Of a stretch of DNA of 60,814 nt, positions 733 to 39,016 are shown one piece after another. Each line of letters begins with the position of its first letter. The first letter of the stretch is position 1. The stretch covers positions 1 through 60,814 of IMG/VR virus record IMGVR_UViG_3300051213_000340; one strand, written 5' to 3'. The notes beneath the pieces are model-generated. The model made no database searches and was not told the origin of the DNA. It saw only the letters and a list, made by a program, of their open reading frames with translations. Source of the stretch: a virus (Duplodnaviria; Caudoviricetes). Both the position numbers and the translations under genes were made by a program.

Positions 733-1038
733 ATGAAGAAAACCATCACTAGCAATGGCGAGATCCTGCAACAGGCTTTCGCGGATCGAGTTGCAGTAAA
801 TACTGCAACCAGAAAAGACTCCACGCTTCGAGTCTGTGAGCATCTAGAGATGTTCCAACCAGAACGCTGGAAGTCACGCGCTCGTTGGGAATACAAGCAC
901 ATCCCATCGCCGACCAACAATCAGATCAATGCAAAGCTCCGAAAGGAGTCCAGCATCGAGCGCAAGATCAGTGCGCTCTTGAGTAGCGGCAAGATCGAGC
1001 AAGCCGTCAAGCTCATAGACAAACACATCCTCCGCTGA
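733..1038 (+). CDS. Hypothetical early protein (101 aa)
   Basis: First ORF after P1, preceded by palindrome and AACTGAAATACA leader; contains a palindrome copy at 792. Confidence 0.7.
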   Translation: MKKTITSNGEILQQAFADRVAVNTATRKDSTLRVCEHLEMFQPERWKSRARWEYKHIPSPTNNQINAKLRKESSIERKISALLSSGKIEQAVKLIDKHILR

Positions 1039-1070
1039 TGCAGTATTTACTGCAACCCGAATCCCGAACC

Positions 1071-1289
1071 ATGAAAATCGAAGACGAAATCGTGATGCAC
1101 AACATCACAAAACACAAGCTCGATGATATGCGAGCAAGATTCATCGGCCTCCTTGAAGGTGATTTGAAACGGCATCTGGATACAATCCAAACCTGCCTCA
1201 ACATGGAACCTCCACGGATTGCTGTGGCAATCGAGCGGGTTGAAACAATCCAAGCAATCATCAAACGACAACTCGACTGCATTAAATAA
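1071..1289 (+). CDS. Hypothetical early protein (MKIEDEIV...)
   Basis: ATG follows palindrome (1039) and CCCGAACC leader shared with the 1738 ORF. Confidence 0.7.
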   Translation: MKIEDEIVMHNITKHKLDDMRARFIGLLEGDLKRHLDTIQTCLNMEPPRIAVAIERVETIQAIIKRQLDCIK

Positions 1290-1292
1290 ACC

Positions 1293-1363
1293 ATGTGAGT
1301 CGTAGTCCCTCACATCTAAAGGACTAGCGCATGAGTCTGCCAAACTCATGCAGTAGAATGGCA
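1293..1363 (+). ncRNA. Two adjacent H-type pseudoknots in intergenic leader (candidate cis-regulatory RNA)
   Basis: PK1: ATGTGAG/CTCACAT plus TAGTCC/GGACTA; PK2: GCATGAGT/ACTCATGC plus TGCCA/TGGCA; all Watson-Crick. Confidence 0.65.
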
Positions 1364-1371
1364 ACTGAATT

Positions 1372-1692
1372 ATGAATACTACCTACCAACATGAAGTATC
1401 CGCCGCCATCGAAGAGTTGGGTGGCGACAAAGTCCTCGCAATCATTGAGACCCTTTATCAAGATGGTCTTGACCTCTATCAAGAAGCGTGTCGCTCCGAA
1501 GCTAGAGATGCGGCCCTCGTTGAACACCACTTCATCGGCCACTCCGAAGCCATCGAAAAACTGCGAAGAGCATTGCTCATCGCGACAGACCGCATGCCAG
1601 TGGTCATTGCCGAAGAGAGTCAATACTACCACGCAACCGCCGAAGAGTTCGGCGATGAACATCGCTACGCCGCCGCCGCCGCTATGCAGTAA
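1372..1692 (+). CDS. Hypothetical acidic early protein (106 aa)
   Basis: ORF with AACTGAATT-ATG leader; stop codon lies inside the palindrome at 1685. Confidence 0.75.
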   Translation: MNTTYQHEVSAAIEELGGDKVLAIIETLYQDGLDLYQEACRSEARDAALVEHHFIGHSEAIEKLRRALLIATDRMPVVIAEESQYYHATAEEFGDEHRYAAAAAMQ

Positions 1693-1737
1693 ATACTGCA
1701 ACCCGAATCATGAATCCCTAATCCCTAATCCCGAACC

Positions 1738-1899
1738 ATGAATCCTAAACCGCACAACCTAAATCGTAAACGCTCGCACTCGCTCCTTCGCTGGAGCGAT
1801 GTGCAAGTGGCACTCACATTCACAATCTTTGTCGCCGCCAGTTGGATCGTTGGCTACGGCATCACTACACTGATCCTAATGTTCCAAAACAAATACTAA
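1738..1899 (+). CDS. Small membrane protein (53 aa)
   Basis: Hand-translated MNPKPHNL...VALTFTIFVAASWIVGYGITTLILMFQNKY; one hydrophobic helix; CCCGAACC-ATG leader. Confidence 0.65.
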   Translation: MNPKPHNLNRKRSHSLLRWSDVQVALTFTIFVAASWIVGYGITTLILMFQNKY

Positions 1900-1900
1900 T

Positions 1901-2182
1901 ATGATACAAGAACCAGAACAGCTGTGCCTCTTTGAGGCTGAAGAAGAATACAACGCCGAACCAAACTACCCATCGCATCGGGCGAAGACCGCACTCGAAC
2001 TGATGCAGTGGATCGGGAAGTCTGGACGCATCCGTGGCAGGATACGACCCAAAGTCAAAGTCATTGACTGCCGCCACTGCTTTGGCGGAGTCCATGTGCT
2101 TGTCACATTGGACGGGCAACGCGAGTGGTATTCGACTGCCGCTATCGAATGGCCGTTCATCACGGACGGCGGACACATCTAA
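1901..2182 (+). CDS. Hypothetical protein (93 aa)
   Basis: Abuts previous ORF, same strand as operon. Confidence 0.65.
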   Translation: MIQEPEQLCLFEAEEEYNAEPNYPSHRAKTALELMQWIGKSGRIRGRIRPKVKVIDCRHCFGGVHVLVTLDGQREWYSTAAIEWPFITDGGHI

Positions 2183-2240
2183 AAATAATTTGTTTTAGAT
2201 GAAGAAAATCATTGACAAATAGTTTGTTATATGCTATACT
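2180..2240 (+). promoter_or_regulatory. Strong sigma70-type early promoter P2 (paralog of P1)
   Basis: TTGACA (2212-2217), 17 bp, TG-n-TATACT (2235-2240); same downstream leader GGTTGGGAGAGGACAGAGAGCC. Confidence 0.9.
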
Positions 2241-2324
2241 ATTCATACGGTTGGGAGAGGACAGAGAGCCGAACCAACCTACTGAAACAAACCTGCAGTA
2301 AATACTGCAACATCAAATAGAACC

Positions 2325-3173
2325 ATGAATAACACAACTGGAATCCTTGTCAAAGTATCCTTTGGCAAGTTCGCCCCCAAAGTAAAGAACAAGAAGGCTA
2401 CCAAAGAGTATGCCAACAACCACCAATGTGACGAGTCGATGCATGAGTCTAGAACTCACTTGATTCCAAAACAATATGTCGATCCGATACAGAAGTTCCA
2501 AGCTTCTGTTCGCAATAACTTTGTCAACAACATCACTTTGCCGTGGGAGCGCGGAGGCACTTGCCTTATTCCCGCGAAGATGATTGACAAGTTCATGTCG
2601 GGCATCGGCAATCTGCGACAAGAGTATGACATACTTGTGGCGCAGTTCCTCGAAAAGTATGAGGACATCGTGGCTGATGCAAAGGTCAGACTCAATGGCG
2701 ACTTCGATGCATCACGCTATCCGTCCAGACAAGATGTGTCTGCTTGCTTCCGCATGGATGTGACCTACTCGCCACTGCCTGATGCTGGTGACTACCGCAT
2801 TGATGTGTCCAAAGAGATCATGGAAGAAGTCCGTGCCGAAACCAATCGCGCCGCCGAAGCGAGATACGAAGCGGCGCGACAGGACTTGCGCCAACGACTC
2901 ATCGACAAAGTCGAACATCTGGCAGACAGATGTAAGGCAATAAATGAATCGGACAAAGCCAAATGGTATGAGTCAAACCTTACCAACATCACGGACTTGA
3001 TCGAACTCATACCAGACATGCTGATCGGAGATGATCCAGATCTACTCGATGCCGTAAAGGCCGCGAAGGAAATGCTCAACGGCATTGACTCCGATGCCAT
3101 CAAAGACAGCGAGTTCGTCCGTGACGACATCCGCAAGAAGGCCGCCGCCATTGTGTCGTCACTCCAATTCTAA
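2325..3173 (+). CDS. DUF3150-like protein (282 aa)
   Basis: TLPW..G..LIP and F....YP.......F segments; position directly upstream of an AAA/VWA pair. Confidence 0.55.
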   Translation: MNNTTGILVKVSFGKFAPKVKNKKATKEYANNHQCDESMHESRTHLIPKQYVDPIQKFQASVRNNFVNNITLPWERGGTCLIPAKMIDKFMSGIGNLRQEYDILVAQFLEKYEDIVADAKVRLNGDFDASRYPSRQDVSACFRMDVTYSPLPDAGDYRIDVSKEIMEEVRAETNRAAEARYEAARQDLRQRLIDKVEHLADRCKAINESDKAKWYESNLTNITDLIELIPDMLIGDDPDLLDAVKAAKEMLNGIDSDAIKDSEFVRDDIRKKAAAIVSSLQF

Positions 3174-3175
3174 CT

Positions 3176-3252
3176 ACCGACAGGGGGAGCGCATCTGATC
3201 ACGCTCACAACCATGCAGTAAATACTGCAACCACAACAAACTGAAATACACT
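3176..3252 (+). promoter_or_regulatory. Intergenic cassette A: hairpin + palindrome (3214) + AC-rich leader
   Basis: Near-identical to 5794-5873. Confidence 0.8.
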
Positions 3253-3261
3253 ACAACTATT

Positions 3262-4329
3262 ATGAACCATCCAGAAATTACCACCAACGATATCGTGTCC
3301 GTCCTTGACCGCTCTGCCAAAGCTGGCAACAAGAAGATCCCAATCTTCTTAGGAATCTATGGTTTGGGCAAGTCACACTGCGGACATGAGTTCGCGCTCA
3401 AGACTGGCAGACAATACATTGACTTCCGTCTGCCCTATCGAACCTTCAACGATGTCCGTGGATTCGGTATCCCGAATCGTGAACGCGGAGTCATGGAGTG
3501 GCTAGTCGATGAGGACTTACCGCAAGATCCCAATGGTTCCTATGCCTTCCATTGGGAAGAGCTGACCAATGCCATGCCTTCTGTCCAGAAGGTCGCCATG
3601 CAAGGCATGCTCGACCGCAAGATCGGGCAGTATGAGTTCCCCAAAGACACCATCATGTTCGCGTCTGGCAACCGACTAGCTCACAAGACTGGTGTCGAGC
3701 GCATGCTCGCCGCCCTTGCCGACCGACTTGCCATCTACCATGTCCGTCCCGATCTGGACAGCTACATGAATTACTTGCAGACTCACGGAAAGTCTGCTGA
3801 AGTAGTTGCATACTTGTCCAGCAATCCGACTGCTACTTACGACTTCGACATTACGAAGTGGGACAGCGAGTCCAACCTGCCAACCTTCCGATCATTCGAC
3901 AGGCTCGATGAGCTTGCCGCATCCTACGAAGATACACAAGAGATGTGCAATGACCCGCTCTTGCGAGCGCATGCCGCCGCTTGTGTCGGCGCAAAGCACG
4001 GCGAGCAGTTCGCGCAGTTCATCAAGCTGACCAGCAAAGTCGGCGATGTCGGCAAGATGATCGAAGAGGCGGACACTTGTCGTATACCAAATGAGATCGA
4101 CATCAAGTGGCTCATTGCTTGCCGTGCGATTGTGCTTGCCACCAAAGAAAACCTGCAACAAGTTCTTGTCTTGACTCACCGCTTGACAGATGAGTCAAAC
4201 AAAGATAGTCAATTACAGGCGATGGAATCCTTTGTTGGCAACACGATCAAGCGGCGCAAGCCAGACTTGATGCGGACAAAGGCCATGATCGACTGGCATG
4301 TTAAACACGGCGATGCACTCTCCAGCTGA
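3262..4329 (+). CDS. MoxR/CbbQ-like AAA+ ATPase (355 aa)
   Basis: Walker A GIYGLGKS, Walker B FHWEE, sensor-1 ASGNR, Arg-finger ALADRL. Confidence 0.85.
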   Translation: MNHPEITTNDIVSVLDRSAKAGNKKIPIFLGIYGLGKSHCGHEFALKTGRQYIDFRLPYRTFNDVRGFGIPNRERGVMEWLVDEDLPQDPNGSYAFHWEELTNAMPSVQKVAMQGMLDRKIGQYEFPKDTIMFASGNRLAHKTGVERMLAALADRLAIYHVRPDLDSYMNYLQTHGKSAEVVAYLSSNPTATYDFDITKWDSESNLPTFRSFDRLDELAASYEDTQEMCNDPLLRAHAAACVGAKHGEQFAQFIKLTSKVGDVGKMIEEADTCRIPNEIDIKWLIACRAIVLATKENLQQVLVLTHRLTDESNKDSQLQAMESFVGNTIKRRKPDLMRTKAMIDWHVKHGDALSS

Positions 4330-4550
4330 ACTACTAAACCAGATCTTGAACCATGAACCCCGAAACCTGCTAACACAGCAGGTTGAGGGGATCATTGAAG
4401 AAGCGATCTGGTTTAGCAGATGGTTGGAGAAAATGAATTGTTCATCCCACATGAGACGAGAAGGCTACTACTATCTAGTATCTGACGAAGTCTATGAGCT
4501 ATGGACACAGCATCACAAGACACTGAAACAATTAGCAATACAGCATAAGT

Positions 4551-5789
4551 ATGAAAGCAAAAGAAATGATAGACAAAGCGATGCTAGTCATCGCAAATCA
4601 CCACGACTTCTTCGCGCCAGCCGCGTTGGCTATGCCGTGGCAGGAGTGTCGGGATATCCCGACAGCATGCACGAATGGTGAGCGTGTGCTTTACAATCCA
4701 GAGTTTCTGGAGTCACTGCCACAGCCAGCCGTTGTTGGACTGATCATTCATGAGATCGCCCATCCGTTGTTGGGACATCTCGAACGGAGCAAGCACATGG
4801 AACACAACACAGCCAACATCGCGTTCGACTACGAGATCAACAATCTCATCGAAGTCTACAACAAAGATGCCGCTCGCAAGATCATCCTTCCAGCAGATGC
4901 GTTTGTCGATGTCGCCAAATACAAGAACGAAGCTGGCGAAGTAGTCTACAAGAAACTGATGGACGAGAAGAAGAACAATCCGCCACCGCCACCACCGCCC
5001 AAAGGCAAAGGCAAAGGCAAAGCTGACAGCGGAGGCGACAACGAAGGCGAGAGCGAGAGCGACAACGATGGCAAAGGCAAAAGCAAACCATCGTCAAGCG
5101 GTATGTTCGAGCAACCATCTGGCAACTCTGACAACAAGAGCAATGTCGAGAAGCGCTGGCGCGAGATCCTGTCCAGCACATTGCAGACTGCGAAGTTGCG
5201 TGGCACTGCCAGTGCTGAACTACTTCAGAAGTTCTCATCCATCATGGAGCCGCCGCTCAAGATGCGCGACCTTCTAGAGAAGTATGTCTGCGAGTTCGCC
5301 ATGTCTGACGACAGCACAAAGTCCGACAAGCGTTGGCTTGCCAACAACGATATGTGTGTATCTGGCATGGAGTCCGAACGCCACGGCACTATCATCTTTA
5401 TCAAAGACACATCTGGTTCTATCACTGACGACATCCTCAAGACATCCTGTTCCGTGATTCAAGATGCTGTCAACACACTCAACGCATCCCGCCTCATTGT
5501 TCTCGATGTCGATGCAGAAGTCTGCGATGTGCAGGAGTTCATGCCCAACGAAGATATTCCATTGACTTGCAAAGGTCGCGGCGGCACAGACTTCCGACCC
5601 GCTTTCGATTGGGCTAAAGACAATGCGTCCGATGCTCGCGTCCTCATCTATCTGACTGACGGATGGGGGGAGTTTCCCACAGATGTTCCAGACATCCCAA
5701 CCCTCTGGCTATCATGGGATCGTGACGAGTCCGACTATCCGTTCGGACAAGTCATTCCACTTTCGGTATTGGCTAACGCCACCGCATAA
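4551..5789 (+). CDS. Putative metallopeptidase + VWA domain protein (DUF2201-like)
   Basis: TACTNG and HEIAH zincin motif; low-complexity linker; MIDAS DTSGS, GGTDF, YLTDG. Confidence 0.88.
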   Translation: MKAKEMIDKAMLVIANHHDFFAPAALAMPWQECRDIPTACTNGERVLYNPEFLESLPQPAVVGLIIHEIAHPLLGHLERSKHMEHNTANIAFDYEINNLIEVYNKDAARKIILPADAFVDVAKYKNEAGEVVYKKLMDEKKNNPPPPPPPKGKGKGKADSGGDNEGESESDNDGKGKSKPSSSGMFEQPSGNSDNKSNVEKRWREILSSTLQTAKLRGTASAELLQKFSSIMEPPLKMRDLLEKYVCEFAMSDDSTKSDKRWLANNDMCVSGMESERHGTIIFIKDTSGSITDDILKTSCSVIQDAVNTLNASRLIVLDVDAEVCDVQEFMPNEDIPLTCKGRGGTDFRPAFDWAKDNASDARVLIYLTDGWGEFPTDVPDIPTLWLSWDRDESDYPFGQVIPLSVLANATA

Positions 5790-34211: not shown

Positions 34212-36845
34212 ATGGCTACATACGCACTCGACTTCGAGACCTATTATGATAAGAGGTGCTCGATCAAAACATTAGGCCCGATGGGCTATTTCTCACATCC
34301 CGACTTTGATGCCTACATGGTGTCGATTGTCGGTGATAACGGAGTCAAATTTGTTGGACCCCCAAAAGATTTTGACTGGAGTTTGCTACAGGATTCGGTT
34401 GTGCTTTCACACAACGCTTCATTCGACGAGTCCCTTTATCTGTACGGAGTCACTCAAGGATGGTGGCCAAATATACAGGCGCGTGAATGGCATTGCACTG
34501 CTGACATGGCAGTCTATTGTGGTTTGCCACGTTCTTTGAAAGGAGCTACTGCCGAAGCTTACAATCTCAAAGTAGACAAGACTACTAGAGACAACATGAG
34601 TGGCAAACGTTGGGAGAACATGAAGCCAGAGTTCAGGAAGGAAGTCAGCGACTATGCCCTTCAAGATTCTGAGCTTTGCTTGAAACTGTGGAAGGACTAC
34701 TCTGACAAGTGGCCAGAACACGAACGCAAGATAAGTCTCGTAAACCGCCGCTGTGGTCAACGCGGCATACCACTTAATACGGAGCTGCTGCGAACACAAC
34801 TTGAGACGATCAAGAAAGAATTATTTGAAGCTGAGAGTGCGATACCGTGGATTGGGGAACGCCCATTACTTAGCCGTGCGGCATTTGATGATCAATGCCG
34901 TTCAGTTGGAATCGAGCCGCCAGCCAGTTTGGCAGAGGGAGATCCCGACGCAGAAGAATGGTTGCGGGTACATGGACAGAAGTTCGTGTGGGTAAATGGA
35001 GTAAAGAACTGGAGGCGGATCAACTCGCTTAAGTGCAAACTCGAATCCTTTGATTACGCGACGATGCCGGATGGCCGTTTCTATGGAAACATCATGTACT
35101 TCGGAGCACATACTGGAAGGTTCAGTGGATCTGGTGGAAACCTCAATCTTCAAAACTTGCCGAAGGATGAGATGTTCGGCGTCAAGATGCGGCATCTCAT
35201 CGCGCCAAAAGAAGACAAGAGACTACTCGTAGTAGACCTTTCTCAGATCGAAGTCCGTACTCTCTGTTGGCTCGCCGGAGATCATGAGACTATGGAGGAG
35301 ATCAAAGAATCGGAAGATATCTATGAAGCGTTCGCCATTCGTTTCGGCTTGTGGTCTCGCGAAAAGGGTTCACTCCGTAACGATCCCCAAACTCGCCACA
35401 AAGTGAAGGCGATGGTTTTAGGCTGCTTTGGTCCAGAAACAAAAGTGTTGACAGATCGTGGCTGGATCGATATCGTCAGAGTCAGAGATACGGATAAAGT
35501 ATGGGACGGAACACAATGGGTACACCACGAAGGACTCCTCCACCAAGGAGTACAAGAGACAATATCACGATTCGGAGTGGAAGCGACTTCGGACCACGAA
35601 ATCCTGACGGAACATGGATGGCGGGAGTGGGGCGAAGTCCAACGATCCGAAAAGGATTTGAAGTCGGCACTAGTCATGGCGAGCTTACCATCTTGTCATA
35701 TGAGCGAACAACGCGAAACAATGGCCGGACTGGATGGAATCCGTTGGTCAAATGTTCGTGTGGCTGGAGCGGAACTGTTGACCGCAATAACCTGCAAAGT
35801 GGGAAAACTACTCGATGCAATTGTTGCGCTAAGAAAGCCTCTGCCCGCACAACAATGCGTAGATTCGGGTATGCTGAAATTGTACCGGACTCAGCACATC
35901 GGGAAAGATTGCTCAATAGAATTAGTGCCATCTACAATAGATGCCACAACCCGAATGACTCCGGTTATCACCACTATGGCGGTCGCGGGATTTGGGTATA
36001 TGAGCCTTGGCTCCGTAATAGGCCGGAGTTTCTTGCGTACCTCATCACCCTTGATGGATGGGATCAACCACATCTCCAACTCGATAGGATTGACAATAAC
36101 AAAGGTTATGAACCGAATAATTTACGGTTTGTTACCCCGATGCAGAACGTTCACAATAGGCGGTCTGTTAAGAGCTTGCAAAAAAGAATCCAAGAGCTTG
36201 AGGCGGAAATCAGAAGTCTACGATCTGAAAAACTGCGGACCAAATAATCGGTTTACAATTAACACAGACTTAGGACCGATTATTGTCCACAACTGTGGAT
36301 ATGGTGCGGGTGCTCCAAAATTCGCCATGATGTCTGGAATGACGGAAGACGAAGCTAAAGAGGCTGTGAACCTTTATCGCACCAAAATGAAGAAGGTGAA
36401 GAAGCTGTGGTCAAATTATAACACAGACATCATCACTTCTTACGATACGCAGAACCGATTCACTGTGGATCTTCCGAGTGGTCGGACTCTTGACTATGGA
36501 AGACTTAGCCCCAAAAAGCAAAACGACAAAATCCATTACGTGGCAATGATGCCCAAAAATGGAAAGCGTGTACCTGTTAAGCTTTGGGGTGGTCTAGTGG
36601 CCGAAAACGCGAGTCAGGCTTTAGCCCGTGACATCTTTAGTCATATGTTGTGTAAGATCGATTCCATTGGACATAGTGCCAAATTGATCATGCACGTACA
36701 TGACGAAGTTGTTGTAGAGGCTGACGCCGATAAAGCTGAATACGTCTTATCCCAAATCATCGATATCATGTCCACTCCACCGGATTGGATTCCAGACATA
36801 CCACTTTCCGCCGAAGGAAAAATTCTAACCAAATACGAAAAATGA
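34212..36845 (+). CDS. polA: Family A DNA polymerase with 3'-5' exonuclease domain, interrupted by an intein
   Basis: Exo ALDFET, HNASFD, YALQD; HTGRFSG, NLQNLP; motif A DLSQIEVR; motif B KAMVLG/CGYG; motif C HVHDE. Confidence 0.95.
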   Translation: MATYALDFETYYDKRCSIKTLGPMGYFSHPDFDAYMVSIVGDNGVKFVGPPKDFDWSLLQDSVVLSHNASFDESLYLYGVTQGWWPNIQAREWHCTADMAVYCGLPRSLKGATAEAYNLKVDKTTRDNMSGKRWENMKPEFRKEVSDYALQDSELCLKLWKDYSDKWPEHERKISLVNRRCGQRGIPLNTELLRTQLETIKKELFEAESAIPWIGERPLLSRAAFDDQCRSVGIEPPASLAEGDPDAEEWLRVHGQKFVWVNGVKNWRRINSLKCKLESFDYATMPDGRFYGNIMYFGAHTGRFSGSGGNLNLQNLPKDEMFGVKMRHLIAPKEDKRLLVVDLSQIEVRTLCWLAGDHETMEEIKESEDIYEAFAIRFGLWSREKGSLRNDPQTRHKVKAMVLGCFGPETKVLTDRGWIDIVRVRDTDKVWDGTQWVHHEGLLHQGVQETISRFGVEATSDHEILTEHGWREWGEVQRSEKDLKSALVMASLPSCHMSEQRETMAGLDGIRWSNVRVAGAELLTAITCKVGKLLDAIVALRKPLPAQQCVDSGMLKLYRTQHIGKDCSIELVPSTIDATTRMTPVITTMAVAGFGYMSLGSVIGRSFLRTSSPLMDGINHISNSIGLTITKVMNRIIYGLLPRCRTFTIGGLLRACKKESKSLRRKSEVYDLKNCGPNNRFTINTDLGPIIVHNCGYGAGAPKFAMMSGMTEDEAKEAVNLYRTKMKKVKKLWSNYNTDIITSYDTQNRFTVDLPSGRTLDYGRLSPKKQNDKIHYVAMMPKNGKRVPVKLWGGLVAENASQALARDIFSHMLCKIDSIGHSAKLIMHVHDEVVVEADADKAEYVLSQIIDIMSTPPDWIPDIPLSAEGKILTKYEK
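35424..36293 (+). mobile_element. Intein (290 aa, residues 405-694) in PolA motif B
   Basis: Block A CFGPETKVLTDRGW, block B ATSDHEILT..GW, block F VYDL, block G IIVHN followed by Cys+1; removal restores KAMVLGCGYG. Confidence 0.95.
35618..36247 (+). CDS. HNH-type homing endonuclease nested in the intein in an alternate reading frame (frame open from 35501)
   Basis: G.LT...CSCG...NLQSGKTTRC.C, RC.NP....Y..YGGRGI.V...W, LDRIDNNKGYEPNNLRF.T...N..N. Confidence 0.88.
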   Translation: MAGVGRSPTIRKGFEVGTSHGELTILSYERTTRNNGRTGWNPLVKCSCGWSGTVDRNNLQSGKTTRCNCCAKKASARTTMRRFGYAEIVPDSAHRERLLNRISAIYNRCHNPNDSGYHHYGGRGIWVYEPWLRNRPEFLAYLITLDGWDQPHLQLDRIDNNKGYEPNNLRFVTPMQNVHNRRSVKSLQKRIQELEAEIRSLRSEKLRTK

Positions 36846-39016
36846 GCTACCGATACCTAAAGAACCTAAGAGAAACAAAAGCCGTTAAAGCACAAAGCCT
36901 TAACAACCTACAGAAACCAAAACCAAAATTCGCCTCTAAGGCAGACTTCCGTGCGTGGTGTTCCAACGCTGCAACAGACCATGTGTTCTACAATATGGTC
37001 GAAGGAAGTACGCCATCGAAGCGGATCAGCAACGACAACCCACCGAATAAAATCTATGGCGTAGTTGCCGACTATGACGCTCCAGTTAATTGGGGCAGCA
37101 TTGACAGCGACATAACTGCGAAGTGTGGGGTTAATATGCCGACGTGGAGAACTAAGACACAATCTGGCTATCTCCGTTTGGTTTGGGAATTTGATAATCC
37201 GATCCCGATTGCTCCAGAGATGTTTGACGCATTCATGAAGCAAATGAATTCGTCACTCAAACTAGATCGTCTGTTTGCTGGCTTTGACAGTACCTCATTG
37301 AGGGCCAGCCAGTACTTTGAATTAGGCGAAGACTGGCACAGCTTAGGGGGTAAAGTCTCTGACGCTACAGTACAGACGGCTCTGATGAAAGCCGCTAACG
37401 ATCATCCGCCGCAGTCTTCGGAGACTTCGATCCCGATCTCTGTGATCGCAGCCGAAGTTGAATCCCGATTCCCGAATCGTTGGATCGGAGAATTTGAAGT
37501 CGGATGCCGTGGTCCACTGTTCTGGATTGATGACGGTATCAACCGTGACGGTTGCCAAGTGTCGGAAGACGGCATCATCTGTTACTCTGACCGTGCTGGA
37601 AAAGGCTTCGTGTCGTGGAAGGAAATCTTCGGAGCGAAGTTCGTTAAGGATTACGAAGAGAAGAAGATGGGCAATCTACTGGACGAGTACTGGTACAATG
37701 GCAGATCGTTCTTCAAAGTCCTGTTCACTTCCGCTGTTACCATTCCACGCGAGCAACTGATTCTGGAGCTGAGGCAGTACGGATTCTCGCTCAAGCCAAA
37801 GAAGGGCCAGCCACTATCTGAGCTGGAGTCAGCTATCCTCACTATCTCTAACCAGAACCGCATCGACGAGATCGCGCCAGTCGTGTTCTCAAAGGATCGT
37901 GTGGTCGCCTACAACGGCCATCGGATTCTCAACTGCGCCAATATCACGCCAGTCGAGCCAGACTCAGATGGCGATCCAGCTAAGTGGCCGTTCATCCATG
38001 AGTGGCTCAATCAGCTGTTCGTCAATACTTCTGGCAATAGACCGACTGTGGAGTATCTGTATTCGTGGCTCAAGCGTTTCTACAGCGCAGTGCTAGACCG
38101 TGAGTTCGTTCAAGGACAGGCTCTGCTGCTTGTCGGACCGACGAACAAAGGAAAATCACTACTATCGAACAGAGTCATTTCCGGTCTGGTCGGCGGCTAC
38201 GCCGATGCCAGCGATTACATTTCCGGACAGACTAAGTTCAACAAAGACTTAGGACGTGTTGCCGCATGGGTCATTGACGACACCACATCGGCTGCGTCCT
38301 TTCAGGATCAGCGCAAAGCCACAGAGATTATCAAACGATCTGTCGCCAACCCGCGAGTTGAGTATCAAGCGAAGTACGCAGACGCCATGTCGATTCCGTG
38401 GACGGGACGAGTGATCATGTCTCTGAACATGGATGCCAACAGTCTGTCCGTGATTCCGGCTCTGGATTCAAGCAACAGAGATAAGCTGATGGCACTCCGT
38501 ATTAGTGACAAAGCCACCAGCAACTTTCCAAGGAATTCGGTACTGGAAGCGACTATCGAACAGGAACTGCCACACTTCGCGAAATTCCTAATCGACTGGA
38601 AGATCCCGAAAGAGATCGAAGACTTCGGACGCTTTGGCATCGTCAGCTATATCGACGAGACAATTGCCTCCGCTGCCTATGACAACTCCAGCCGTTCGTC
38701 AGTGGCAGAGTTGGTGGAGTTCTTCTCTAAGCGTTGCCGCGCACTTAATCCAGATATGGATATCTGGCAGGGAACGCTTACGGAATTCCAAGTCGCGCTA
38801 CACGATTTCAACAATGGTCGTGGCGTCGGCATGTCCAACAATCTGGAGTTCGTCCGCCGTGGCATGTCCACGATGGAAGAGGCAAGCCGGAACAACAAGC
38901 ACTTGCGTCCGGTCAAATCTCATGGCCAAGGCGGTGGTAAGATTTGGGAGATCAATCTGAACCCCAAATACGATATCACTGTTGGTCCTTCAGATAATCC
39001 AGCAGAAGCGGCATAG
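36842..39016 (+). CDS. Primase-helicase (PrimPol-like N-terminus + SF3/DUF5906-like helicase)
   Basis: ADYD and T.SGYLRLVW N-terminal motifs; Walker A GPTNKGKS, Walker B VIDD, SLN; ATGA overlap with polA. Confidence 0.8.
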   Translation: MSYRYLKNLRETKAVKAQSLNNLQKPKPKFASKADFRAWCSNAATDHVFYNMVEGSTPSKRISNDNPPNKIYGVVADYDAPVNWGSIDSDITAKCGVNMPTWRTKTQSGYLRLVWEFDNPIPIAPEMFDAFMKQMNSSLKLDRLFAGFDSTSLRASQYFELGEDWHSLGGKVSDATVQTALMKAANDHPPQSSETSIPISVIAAEVESRFPNRWIGEFEVGCRGPLFWIDDGINRDGCQVSEDGIICYSDRAGKGFVSWKEIFGAKFVKDYEEKKMGNLLDEYWYNGRSFFKVLFTSAVTIPREQLILELRQYGFSLKPKKGQPLSELESAILTISNQNRIDEIAPVVFSKDRVVAYNGHRILNCANITPVEPDSDGDPAKWPFIHEWLNQLFVNTSGNRPTVEYLYSWLKRFYSAVLDREFVQGQALLLVGPTNKGKSLLSNRVISGLVGGYADASDYISGQTKFNKDLGRVAAWVIDDTTSAASFQDQRKATEIIKRSVANPRVEYQAKYADAMSIPWTGRVIMSLNMDANSLSVIPALDSSNRDKLMALRISDKATSNFPRNSVLEATIEQELPHFAKFLIDWKIPKEIEDFGRFGIVSYIDETIASAAYDNSSRSSVAELVEFFSKRCRALNPDMDIWQGTLTEFQVALHDFNNGRGVGMSNNLEFVRRGMSTMEEASRNNKHLRPVKSHGQGGGKIWEINLNPKYDITVGPSDNPAEAA

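What the first reader, a model, noticed from the sequence alone, without database searches (positions are those of the whole stretch)
35424..36293. Dual-coded intein: homing endonuclease written in a different frame inside the PolA intein
Seen: the polA frame is stop-free and holds a complete intein (C405 to HN694, Cys+1) in motif B. Between blocks B and F are ~185 residues with no LAGLIDADG or HNH motif. The same nucleotides read in the -1/+2 frame (open 35501-36247) give a full phage HNH-type endonuclease (CSCG...C.C zinc module, YGGRGI, DRIDNNKGYEPNN). Its likely ATG (35618) is formed from the GGA-TGG codons after intein block B, and its TAA falls in block F. Established: canonical inteins carry the endonuclease in frame. 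Inference: a free-standing HNH gene invaded a mini-intein out of frame and the intein frame was purged of stops, giving a two-frame mobile element. The nuclease would be made by internal initiation, or by -1 slippage at the A_AAG in GAA-AAG near 35649-35654. I recall rare similar architectures in other phage inteins, so novelty needs a literature check.
Basis: partly seen in the sequence, partly recalled or inferred. Interest (0 to 1): 0.92.

Follow-up and report, generated by a model that had tools for sequence, protein, structure and literature searches.

The report
Polymerase intein with out-of-frame nuclease gene
A self-splicing protein insert (intein) in this phage's DNA polymerase gene carries its likely mobility nuclease as a separate gene written one base out of step over the same DNA; the layout is real and kept by selection, but inteins of this kind were first described in 2025-2026.

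Summary
polA (34212-36845) is one open frame holding a 290-codon class-1 intein (35424-36293) in motif B. An HNH-like gene (35516-36247) runs through the intein's middle in the -1 frame.

It is not an artefact. All 36 of 36 polymerase-embedded copies examined, including Salmonella phage SETP3, share the same frame offset. Contigs of public runs show no indels.

Selection switches frame:
- Splicing lobes: omega 0.06-0.23 in the pol frame.
- Core: omega 0.04-0.06 in the HNH frame and 1.35-1.83 in the pol frame.

The pol-frame middle is predicted disordered, while the HNH-frame product folds.

The nuclease is probably made by independent initiation at a conserved ATG (35516). Stops in its frame are avoided from exactly that point (0 of 120 susceptible sites against 30.6 expected). 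A sigma-70-like promoter held by synonymous constraint lies about 40 nt upstream. No slippery site is conserved.

The element is sporadic: 79 of 80 close polA relatives lack it.

The architecture class is in print (2025-2026 preprints), and this scan found the same polA/HNH layout before on other DNA. I rate it a new member of a known kind.

The parts
34212..36845 (+). Family A DNA polymerase gene (polA), one continuous ORF of 877 codons including the intein
   Evidence: ORF; PF00476, E 9.9e-28; phrog_17, E 2.5e-76
34212..35423 (+). N-extein (404 codons), ending ...KAMVLG in motif B
   Evidence: exact junction in 79 intein-free relatives
35424..36293 (+). Class-1 intein, 290 codons: Cys1 ... 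His289-Asn290, followed by Cys+1
   Evidence: invariant C1, T55, H58, D267, H289, N290; Hint fold
35424..35693 (+). N-terminal splicing lobe (intein residues 1-90, blocks A and B), constrained in the pol frame
   Evidence: pLDDT about 70-92 in 10-residue blocks; pol-frame omega 0.13-0.23 over 35424-35648
35448..35476 (+). Sigma-70-like promoter candidate TTGACA-17-TATCGT inside the intein's N-lobe coding sequence, about 40 nt upstream of the nuclease ATG (inferred, not shown to fire)
   Evidence: 10 of 12 match; Leu9 = TTG in 15 of 20 against 3.0 expected; third base of codon 16 = T in 16 of 21 against 5.6; control columns unbiased
35516..36247 (+). HNH-like homing-endonuclease gene in the -1 frame (243 codons plus TAA). 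In this window an in-frame ATG also lies at 35501 and a conserved one at 35618.
35694..36164 (+). Pol-frame 'linker' (intein residues 91-247): translated as part of the precursor but unconstrained and predicted unstructured
   Evidence: pLDDT below 50; pol-frame omega 1.35-1.83 in the core; no conservation
35663..36235 (+). Folded part of the nuclease (residues 50-240) under strong purifying selection in the HNH frame
   Evidence: pLDDT about 80-95; HNH-frame omega 0.04-0.06 over 35649-36203; 127 of 216 variable sites at HNH codon position 3
35753..35827 (+). Cys4 module of the nuclease (C80, C82, C101, C104, all invariant)
36083..36121 (+). DRIDNNKGYEPNN motif (beta-beta-alpha region), with invariant Arg191 where canonical HNH_3 proteins have the catalytic His
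   Evidence: invariant columns; E188-191, E203-206, H208-214; weak hhalign alignment placing D-R opposite D-H
36195..36293 (+). C-terminal splicing lobe (blocks F and G, residues 258-290), constrained in the pol frame; the nuclease stop codon lies inside it
   Evidence: pLDDT about 83-92; pol-frame omega 0.06-0.11 over 36204-36293
36294..36845 (+). C-extein, starting CGYGAG (rest of motif B)

Best explanation
This is a mobile class-1 intein in motif B of a phage family A DNA polymerase. Its homing-endonuclease slot holds a complete HNH-like gene read in the -1 frame on the same strand.

The polymerase frame stays open, so the precursor is made in full and the intein splices itself out. About 157 residues of meaningless, disordered pol-frame peptide serve as the linker between its two splicing lobes.

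The nuclease is a separate protein. Translation most likely starts at the conserved ATG at 35516, which overlaps the second conserved Trp codon of the intein. The transcript is possibly made from a sigma-70-like promoter written into the intein's own N-terminal coding sequence (35448-35476). The first 45 or so residues of the nuclease are a disordered tail dictated by the Hint-domain codons.

The nuclease then presumably cuts intein-less polA alleles during co-infection, and repair copies intein plus nuclease gene as one unit.

Shown: the architecture, its conservation, frame-specific selection, stop avoidance, the two predicted folds, and a sporadic distribution with intein/extein incongruence.

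Inferred: splicing, nuclease activity and target, the promoter, and the start codon.
For: Architecture conserved:
- The window, L001-L003 (GenBank phages SETP3, EBPR siphovirus 2, Vibrio phage 97.13) and L004-L035 (IMG/VR) make 36 of 36 polymerase-embedded copies with pol frame = HNH frame + 1.
- The pol frame is open throughout. The HNH frame is open in 35 of 36.

Assembly: contigs of three studies match 34900-35508 and 35671-36800 with 0 differences and 0 gaps. There were no indels and no joints in any of the 4 runs.

Selection:
- Variable sites peak at pol codon position 3 in the lobes (13 of 19 and 24 of 34).
- They peak at HNH codon position 3 in the core (127 of 216).
- Omega is 0.04-0.06 in the HNH frame in the core. 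It is 0.06-0.23 in the pol frame in the lobes.

Folds:
- The intein model is confident for residues 1-90 and 258-290 and below pLDDT 50 for 91-247. Its top PDB matches are mini-inteins at probability 1.00.
- The HNH-frame model has mean pLDDT 77.7 and is folded from about residue 50 to 240. It has 101 BFVD matches at E <= 0.001, several of which are named HNH homing endonucleases.

Start of translation:
- ATG in 30 of 34 loci and GTG in 4 of 34.
- The third base before the Trp codon is A in 19 of 21 against 8.7 expected.
- HNH-frame stops: 36 in 600 codons upstream of the ATG against 0 in 1000 downstream.
- Stop-prone codon pairs end in T in 42 of 127 upstream (34.6 expected) and in 0 of 120 between the two ATGs (30.6 expected).

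Promoter.

Mobility:
- 79 of 80 closest polA relatives are intein-free with an exact junction.
- L005 shares 92% of the HNH but 61% and 44% of the exteins. L011 shares 89% and 86% of the exteins but 56% of the HNH.
Against: - No experiment or transcript data exist. No RNA holder was listed, and contigs cannot show starts.
- Pfam HNH models hit 0 of 28 family members.
- Searches of solved structures by sequence and by fold gave no significant match.
- The residue aligned with the catalytic His of canonical HNH proteins is an invariant Arg. Nuclease chemistry is therefore unproven.
- The promoter scan found 5 sites in 3 kb against 3.7 +/- 1.8 expected. The promoter case thus rests on synonymous-site conservation alone. 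6 of 21 lineages lack a good -35/-10 pair.
- A second conserved NTG at 35618 sits where free-standing homologues start, so the true start is not settled.
- The P values ignore phylogenetic relatedness, although control columns in the same alignment show no bias.
- One copy (L012) has a nonsense codon in the HNH frame with the intein intact.
Confidence: 0.8

Rival explanations
1. Assembly or sequencing artefact: the nuclease is really in frame with the intein, and two compensating indel errors displace it.
For: No single laid contig spans the whole stretch.
Against: - 36 of 36 copies from independent metagenomes and isolate genomes share the same offset.
- No indels appeared in contigs of 4 runs.
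- The pol frame is stop-free where free-standing homologues have 0.058 stops per codon.
- The pol frame of the splicing lobes is selected on both sides.
- No in-frame long relative was found among proteins of 427-2000 residues (weak evidence).
Confidence: 0.01
2. The nuclease is made by programmed -1 ribosomal frameshifting from the pol frame. This would give an N-extein + N-intein + HNH fusion rather than a separate protein.
For: The HNH frame is the -1 frame of polA, the natural direction for such a shift. 13 of the 34 loci listed have some X_XXY_YYZ heptamer within 220 nt after the ATG; that is 8 distinct sequences (AAACCCT/G, TTTAAAC, AAAGGGG, GGGGGGC).
Against: - The window has no heptamer, and none is conserved in position.
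- The GAA-AAG site is not a canonical heptamer and is absent from L009.
- Stop avoidance starts sharply at the conserved ATG, not at a later site.
- The start codon itself is under synonymous constraint.
- The RNA around it has no unusual structure (z = -0.09).
Confidence: 0.06
3. One reading: no promoter of its own; translation starts at ATG 35618 by internal initiation on the polA mRNA.
For: - The Gly codon before the block-B Trp is GGA in 13 of 15 against 2.8 expected. The HNH-frame codon there is ATG, GTG or TTG in 19 of 20 loci.
- This Met lies about 20 residues before the GxLT motif, like the N-termini of free-standing homologues.
Against: - The HNH frame is protected from stops already from 35516 (0 of 120 susceptible pairs against 30.6 expected between the two ATGs).
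- This is unexplained if translation began only at 35618.
- The purine-rich stretch before 35618 ends 2-3 nt from the ATG, while the one before 35516 has a 5-nt spacing (my reading of the sequence).
- The M/V/L pattern also fits a conserved hydrophobic residue.
Confidence: 0.15
4. The nested protein is not a homing nuclease. It would be a DNA-binding or other factor, its catalytic His having been lost, kept for the phage's or the intein's benefit.
For: - An invariant Arg sits where canonical HNH_3 proteins have His.
- There are no Pfam HNH hits (0 of 28) and no PDB match.
Against: - Its relatives are free-standing phage genes annotated as HNH homing endonucleases. These have AP2, NUMOD and HTH partner domains.
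- Homologues sit between split-intein halves, as known homing endonucleases do.
- The intein is sporadic and incongruent with its exteins, which needs a mobility function.
Confidence: 0.1
5. The HNH frame in this copy is a decaying relic and the intein is in effect a mini-intein.
For: One relative (L012) carries TGG>TAG in the HNH frame with the intein frame intact. Homing-cycle theory expects such decay.
Against: - The window's ORF is intact, and all invariant residues are present.
- Omega is 0.04-0.06 against its closest relatives.
- L012 differs from the intact L011 by only 5 substitutions, so that break is very recent.
Confidence: 0.03

Closest known systems
[quoted passage not shown]
   Same: A same-strand, out-of-frame homing-endonuclease ORF lies between the splicing blocks of a contiguous intein. 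The in-frame stretch there forms no recognisable structure. The distribution suggests ongoing transfer. The proposed origin is invasion by a free-standing endonuclease gene.
   Different: The endonuclease family differs (endonuclease VII-like against this Cys4 + DRIDNNKGY HNH-like family). So do the hosts (actinophages) and the host proteins named there (DNA polymerase III alpha, minor capsid, terminase, thymidylate synthase). The parts I read report no start-codon, stop-avoidance or promoter analysis. I could not see the supplements.
Cyanobacterial dnaX intein with an out-of-frame LAGLIDADG endonuclease in the +2 ORF (Phillips, DeSimone and Gogarten, bioRxiv 10.64898/2026.09.14.751524; I read the abstract, section 17 and passages). 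It credits Gorbalenya 1998, which I did not see.
   Same: A broadly distributed intein with an overlapping endonuclease ORF. dN/dS is low in the endonuclease frame and raised in the extein frame over the overlap. Distribution is sporadic. Secondary invasion of a mini-intein is proposed.
   Different: The genes are cellular (cyanobacterial), the endonuclease is LAGLIDADG, and the host protein is different.
ShiLan domain: an out-of-frame HNH hidden in an in-frame-open insertion of a phage methylase (Arsenault et al., Genes 2025, PMC11855218; I read the abstract and Discussion)
   Same: A hidden HNH ORF sits in another frame of an insertion that leaves the host frame open. How it is translated is an open question.
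   Different: That insertion has no splicing domains and stays in the host protein. Here a complete intein removes it.
Fractured genes: split-intein halves flanking a free-standing endonuclease gene (Dassa et al. 2009, PMC2677866; I read passages)
   Same: A free-standing-type endonuclease gene lies in the intein's endonuclease slot, and its coding sequence overlaps the intein parts. Homologues of this very HNH family occur in that layout (L067 in polA, L038 in another gene).
   Different: In the window the host gene is not broken; one ORF runs through. Dassa et al. found GIY-YIG and Vsr-like enzymes, not HNH.
Canonical full-length inteins with an in-frame LAGLIDADG or HNH domain (for example PI-SceI; recalled)
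   Same: Same position of the endonuclease between blocks B and F. Same presumed homing cycle.
   Different: The endonuclease is a domain of the intein polypeptide there. Here it is a separate gene product from another frame.

Membership tests
Class-1 intein (Hint domain) | N-terminal Cys/Ser, block B T-x-x-H, and C-terminal His-Asn followed by Cys/Ser/Thr | tested here: met
   C1, T55, H58, D267, H289 and N290 are invariant in 20 of 20 aligned inteins. Cys+1 follows.
Class-1 intein (Hint domain) | Hint fold | tested here: met
   The AF2 model is confident for residues 1-90 and 258-290. Foldseek against PDB lists mini-inteins first (Ssp DnaB, DnaX, gp41-1, RecA) at probability 1.00 and E 1e-3 to 1e-2, aligning only 74-92 columns. 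Pfam intein models did not hit at E <= 0.1.
Class-1 intein (Hint domain) | In-frame insertion at a conserved site, with intein-free alleles that join precisely | tested here: met
   79 of 80 related polA loci read VLG|CGYG with a 0-nt gap. The carrier has an 870-nt gap.
Class-1 intein (Hint domain) | Protein splicing activity | not testable with these tools
   Inferred from intact catalytic residues and from the essential host gene.
HNH (beta-beta-alpha-metal) endonuclease | Match to curated HNH family models | tested here: inconclusive
   PHROG families annotated HNH endonuclease match strongly (phrog_374 at 6.8e-35, phrog_2081 at 2e-23, phrog_3377 at 8.4e-22). Pfam HNH models hit 0 of 28 members. 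NCBIfam gave nothing. A profile search of PDB sequences gave nothing relevant.
HNH (beta-beta-alpha-metal) endonuclease | Catalytic His at the end of the first beta strand | tested here: not met
   The motif reads D190-R191-I-D-N-N-K-G-Y with R191 invariant in 28 of 28. A weak hhalign alignment (E 0.026, probability 1.9%) puts D-R opposite the D-H of SETP3 ORF37, an annotated HNH endonuclease. The identity of the catalytic position is partly recalled.
HNH (beta-beta-alpha-metal) endonuclease | Beta-beta-alpha fold with conserved Asn residues | tested here: inconclusive
   The model shows E188-191, E203-206 and H208-214 over the motif, with N202 and N214 invariant. Foldseek against PDB found no match at E <= 0.001. 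BFVD matches include proteins named HNH homing endonuclease.
HNH (beta-beta-alpha-metal) endonuclease | DNA cleavage | not testable with these tools
   Inferred from mobility patterns only.
[quoted passage not shown] | Endonuclease ORF on the same strand in another frame between the splicing blocks, with the host frame open | tested here: met
   (36 of 36).
[quoted passage not shown] | Purifying selection on the endonuclease frame and relaxed in-frame linker | tested here: met
[quoted passage not shown] | Homology to the published examples (endonuclease VII-like or LAGLIDADG endonuclease; their host proteins) | tested here: inconclusive
   The family differs by name. phrog_1035 'endonuclease VII' matches only at E 0.0093. 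I therefore file it as a new member of the kind, not of those families.
Fractured gene / split intein | Host gene in two ORFs, each with one intein half | tested here: not met
   The window has a single 877-codon ORF. The layout is met in relatives L067 and L038.
Programmed -1 ribosomal frameshift site | Conserved X_XXY_YYZ heptamer with a downstream structure | tested here: not met
   No heptamer in the window, and none conserved in position among 34 loci. The fold of 35478-35570 gave z = -0.09.

The most novel reading that the evidence does not exclude
The Hint-domain coding sequence of this intein family has been overprinted with a whole expression cassette for the nested nuclease. The cassette comprises a sigma-70-type promoter (-35 in the Val-Leu-Thr codons of block A, -10 in the x-Ile-Val codons), a leader, a start codon built on a conserved Trp codon, and about 45 codons of N-terminal tail. 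The element would then be a self-contained two-gene mobile cassette that expresses its nuclease independently of polA. One nonsense mutation in the unconstrained pol-frame linker would turn it into a split intein, which would make this dual-coded form a direct precursor of 'fractured' polymerase genes.
Probability: 0.4. Interest if true: 0.6.

Novelty: new member of a known kind. Interest (0 to 1): 0.45.

Why it matters
This is a clean, widespread case of about 730 nt read in two frames. Selection hands over from one frame to the other twice within one mobile element.

It shows that an intein can tolerate about 157 residues of arbitrary peptide in its endonuclease slot. A homing nuclease can also ride in an intein without being part of it.

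The same layout occurs in cultivable E. coli and Salmonella phages (SETP3, EP23, Pubbukkers). The open question raised by the 2025-2026 papers, how hidden endonucleases are expressed, therefore becomes testable. Specific predictions are the promoter at the block-A codons and the ATG on the second Trp.

It also matters for annotation. In the four GenBank records I opened, one of which carries no annotation at all, the nested gene is not annotated.

Tried and rejected
- DNA similarity: blastn of 35200-36500 against GenBank phages found no match.
- Family models: Pfam on both frames gave only DNA_pol_A for the whole protein. Pfam on all 28 family members gave no HNH model. NCBIfam gave nothing useful.
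- Solved structures: the PDB profile search returned only chance-level hits. Foldseek of the nuclease model against PDB gave 0 matches at E <= 0.001.
- ESM Atlas, residues 46-243: best score 0.90, to unnamed viral clusters. NUMOD3, I-HmuI_NUMOD-like and AP2 clusters scored 0.83, which makes them leads only.
- hhalign of the family against SETP3 ORF37 was weak (E 0.026).
- In-frame fused relatives: none among 289 candidates of 427-2000 residues at E <= 1e-5. The tool calls this weak evidence.
- Frameshift signals: none conserved.
- RNA structure around the start: z = -0.09.
- The promoter scan alone is not above chance (5 found against 3.7 +/- 1.8).
- Expression: no RNA holder listed. One run guessed to be RNA (X11) holds a 767-nt contig over 35519-36285, but contigs cannot show starts, ends or transcription.
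- I did not use complex prediction, the search of protein representatives or the listing of cluster members.
- Supplementary files of the preprints were closed. Their tables may list polymerase-I or HNH cases that bear on novelty.
- I considered and rejected an artefact, a relic gene and -1 frameshifting (see rivals).


Full report
**What is there.** The window is a complete 60,814-base virus record.
- One search lists one polA ORF, 34212..36845 (877 aa). PF00476 matches it on both sides of an insert.
- The insert is a 290-codon intein, 35424-36293. It starts with Cys, ends with His-Asn and is followed by Cys.
- A second + strand ORF, 35501..36247, runs through the middle of the intein in the -1 frame.
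- This second ORF matches PHROG families annotated as HNH endonuclease (phrog_374 at E 6.8e-35, three more below 1e-20).
- Pfam and NCBIfam find nothing in either frame of the insert.

**It is real and conserved.**
- tblastn of the -1 frame product against GenBank phages hit 1024 records. The best hits lie under DNA polymerase genes of Salmonella phage SETP3, Shigella phage EP23, E. coli phages, EBPR siphovirus 2 and a Vibrio phage.
- In the three I opened (L001-L003), the polymerase is one long ORF and the HNH match sits in the other frame, exactly as in the window.
- A scan of IMG/VR gave 80 loci. With the window and L001-L003, that makes 84 sequences examined.
- 36 of them hold the HNH inside a polymerase ORF. 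All 36 have pol frame = HNH frame + 1.
- In all 36 the pol frame is open through the insert. The open stretch is 875-1229 codons in loci that are not cut by a contig end.
- The HNH frame is open in 35 of 36.
- The other 48 loci (38% identity or less) have both other frames closed. I read 46 of them as free-standing genes. The other two (L038, L067) have intein pieces in a third frame.
- Contigs of four public runs laid on 34900-36800 show no inserted or deleted letters and no joints.
  - Three studies carry pieces identical to the window over 34900-35508 and 35671-36800.
  - No single piece spans everything, and the best holder may be the window's own sample.

**Selection changes frame twice.** I compared the window with L004-L007 and L009.
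- In the N-lobe before the ATG, variable sites fall on pol codon position 3 (13 of 19).
- In the C-lobe they also fall on pol codon position 3 (24 of 34).
- In the core they fall on HNH codon position 3 (127 of 216).
- Nei-Gojobori estimates:

| Region | pol-frame omega | HNH-frame omega |
|---|---|---|
| 35424-35648 | 0.13-0.23 | above 1 |
| 35649-36203 | 1.35-1.83 | 0.04-0.06 (four pairs; dS saturated for L009) |
| 36204-36293 | 0.06-0.11 (four pairs; dS saturated for L009) | 0.68-2.37 (five pairs) |

- The hand-over lies near 35650-35700 and near 36180-36210.

**Stop statistics.**
- Free-standing homologues carry 0.058 stops per codon in the frame that corresponds to pol, and 0 of 35 are open.
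- 20 of 20 embedded copies are open.

**Folds.**
- The intein model (20-sequence alignment) is confident for residues 1-90 and 258-290. It is below pLDDT 50 for residues 91-247.
- Its PDB matches are mini-inteins at probability 1.00. E values are only about 1e-3 and 74-92 columns align.
- The catalytic residues C1, T55, H58, D267, H289 and N290 are invariant.
- The nuclease model (28-sequence alignment) has mean pLDDT 77.7. Residues 1-45 are disordered and the body is folded.
- The nuclease model has no significant PDB match. It has 101 BFVD matches at E <= 0.001.
  - The first is an uncharacterised 247-aa protein of Salmonella phage LPSE1 (42% identity).
  - The following matches include proteins named HNH homing endonuclease or AP2-domain protein.
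- The family has an invariant Cys4 module and the motif D-R-I-D-N-N-K-G-Y...N...N.
- The Arg in that motif is invariant. In a weak alignment it stands opposite the His of a canonical HNH protein.
- 'HNH' is therefore an annotation-level label, and the chemistry is open.

**How the nuclease is probably made.**
- An ATG that overlaps the second conserved Trp codon of the intein (window 35516) is present in 30 of 34 loci, with GTG in the other 4. L012 and L016 were left out as broken or cut.
- The base that creates this ATG is A in 19 of 21 lineages against 8.7 expected from extein codon usage.
- The HNH frame has 36 stops in the 600 codons upstream of this ATG and 0 in the 1000 codons downstream.
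- A sharper test counts codon pairs where a synonymous T would create an HNH-frame stop:

| Position | Pairs ending in T | Expected |
|---|---|---|
| Upstream of the ATG | 42 of 127 | 34.6 |
| Between 35516 and 35618 equivalents | 0 of 120 | 30.6 |
| After the 35618 equivalent | 0 of 86 | 20.6 |

- The frame is therefore protected from that ATG onward, although its amino acids there are not conserved.
- A second NTG, at 35618, is also constrained: GGA in 13 of 15 against 2.8 expected.
- No slippery heptamer is conserved, and the window has none.
- The local RNA fold is unremarkable.

**Promoter candidate.**
- The scan lists TTGACA-17-TATCGT at 35448-35476. This alone is not above chance.
- The Leu codon that supplies TTG is TTG in 15 of 20 lineages against 3.0 expected. 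That makes it the strongest synonymous bias among 18 conserved columns.
- The T that opens the -10 is present in 16 of 21 against 5.6 expected.
- Columns such as C1, G13, I17, D28 and G29 are unbiased.
- By my count, 15 of 21 lineages have at least 5 of 6 in the -35 together with at least 4 of 6 in the -10.
- These P values ignore relatedness.

**Mobility.**
- Of the 80 closest polA relatives (62-89% N-extein identity), 79 lack the intein and join exactly at VLG|CGYG. The one carrier is the contig of L004.
- Intein and exteins disagree:
  - L005 shares 92% of the HNH and 93% of the N-lobe, but 61% and 44% of the exteins.
  - L011 shares 89% and 86% of the exteins, but 56% of the HNH.
- Identity of the splicing lobes tracks identity of the HNH, so the two parts travel together.
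- L012 differs from L011 by five substitutions. One of them is TGG>TAG in the HNH frame, with the intein frame intact. Such decay is expected of a selfish nuclease.

**Origin.**
- The nearest relatives outside inteins are whole free-standing genes, and no in-frame fusion was found (weak evidence). Both favour invasion by a free-standing gene, as the preprints propose.
- A one-step out-of-frame insertion should bring about 11 pol-frame stops, so the founding event must have been rare or passed through another state.
- Homologues of the same nuclease sit between split-intein halves in L067 (polA, another site) and L038.
- The contiguous dual-coded form is one nonsense mutation away from that layout. 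I did not test the direction of change.

**Literature.** Searches were.
- bioRxiv 10.1101/2025.01.02.630785 reports actinophage inteins with antisense or out-of-frame endonucleases. [quoted passage not shown]
- bioRxiv 10.64898/2026.09.14.751524 describes the cyanobacterial dnaX intein with a +2-frame LAGLIDADG under purifying selection. It credits Gorbalenya 1998.
- PMC11855218 describes a hidden HNH in a non-intein insertion.
- PMC2677866 describes fractured genes.
- The two papers that hold both 'SETP3' and 'intein' were seen only as search listings. A Jerseyvirus paper (PMC8425127, passages only) mentions inteins but not this layout.
- I found no paper on the family A polymerase/HNH case. 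Subscription journals and supplements were not searchable.

**Earlier findings of this scan.** The same layout was seen on other DNA many times: 61 notes in at least 54 genomes. Two follow-ups also proposed a promoter and start codon of its own. I looked these up after reaching my reading, and they agree with it.

**Verdict.** This is a new member of a known kind. It is of moderate interest, mainly because it makes the expression question testable.

Noticed in passing
L067:821-3853: A polA gene fractured at a different site. ORF 821..2116 ends with an N-intein half. ORF 2744..3853 starts with a C-intein half (...VIHN|S). A 295-codon homologue of this HNH (1860..2747) lies between them, overlapping the end of the first half and the start of the second. 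This is an HNH-type 'fractured gene'; Dassa et al. [quoted passage not shown]
   Followed up: partly
L038:1-2942: Another gene is split by an intein. I ran no family search on it; from memory it looks like a terminase large subunit. The N half ends at 1395. The C half (...IVSN|C) lies in ORF 2142..2942. A 413-codon HNH homologue with C-terminal repeats (1160..2401) bridges the two halves.
   Followed up: partly
L029 and L030: 1313-4999: A 1229-codon polymerase ORF appears to hold two inteins. The first carries the out-of-frame HNH (3001-3546). A second set of intein blocks matches at 3980-4762.
   Followed up: no
L012:2646-3500: This copy has TGG>TAG in the CxCGW motif of the HNH frame while the intein frame stays open. 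It differs from the intact L011 by only 5 substitutions. This is either a very recent inactivation or a sequencing error.
   Followed up: yes
window 35520-35536 (intein codons 33 and 37): Two further strong synonymous biases lie just after the nuclease ATG. Val33 is GTA in 16 of 20 against 4.1 expected. Gly37 is GGA in 12 of 21 against 3.6 expected. They may reflect the initiation context or the conserved M-G-(N/K/T) start of the nuclease. This is unexplained.
   Followed up: no
window 35325-35419 (run X11, contig 12): A 130-nt contig of a relative (9 differences in 95 nt) leaves the window at about 35419. It continues with letters that fit the start of the C-extein, then an adapter-like string. 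It may be an intein-free allele in the same sample, but it is too short to be sure.
   Followed up: no
window 36785-39016: The next ORF (743 aa as listed, TTG start) overlaps the end of polA by 61 nt in another frame. The true start is probably further downstream. I did not examine it.
   Followed up: no
L002:4250-4747 (SETP3 ORF37): SETP3 also has a canonical free-standing HNH/AP2-type gene about 200 nt downstream of its intein-bearing polA, and an intein-containing helicase close by. Several mobile elements cluster in that replication module.
   Followed up: no
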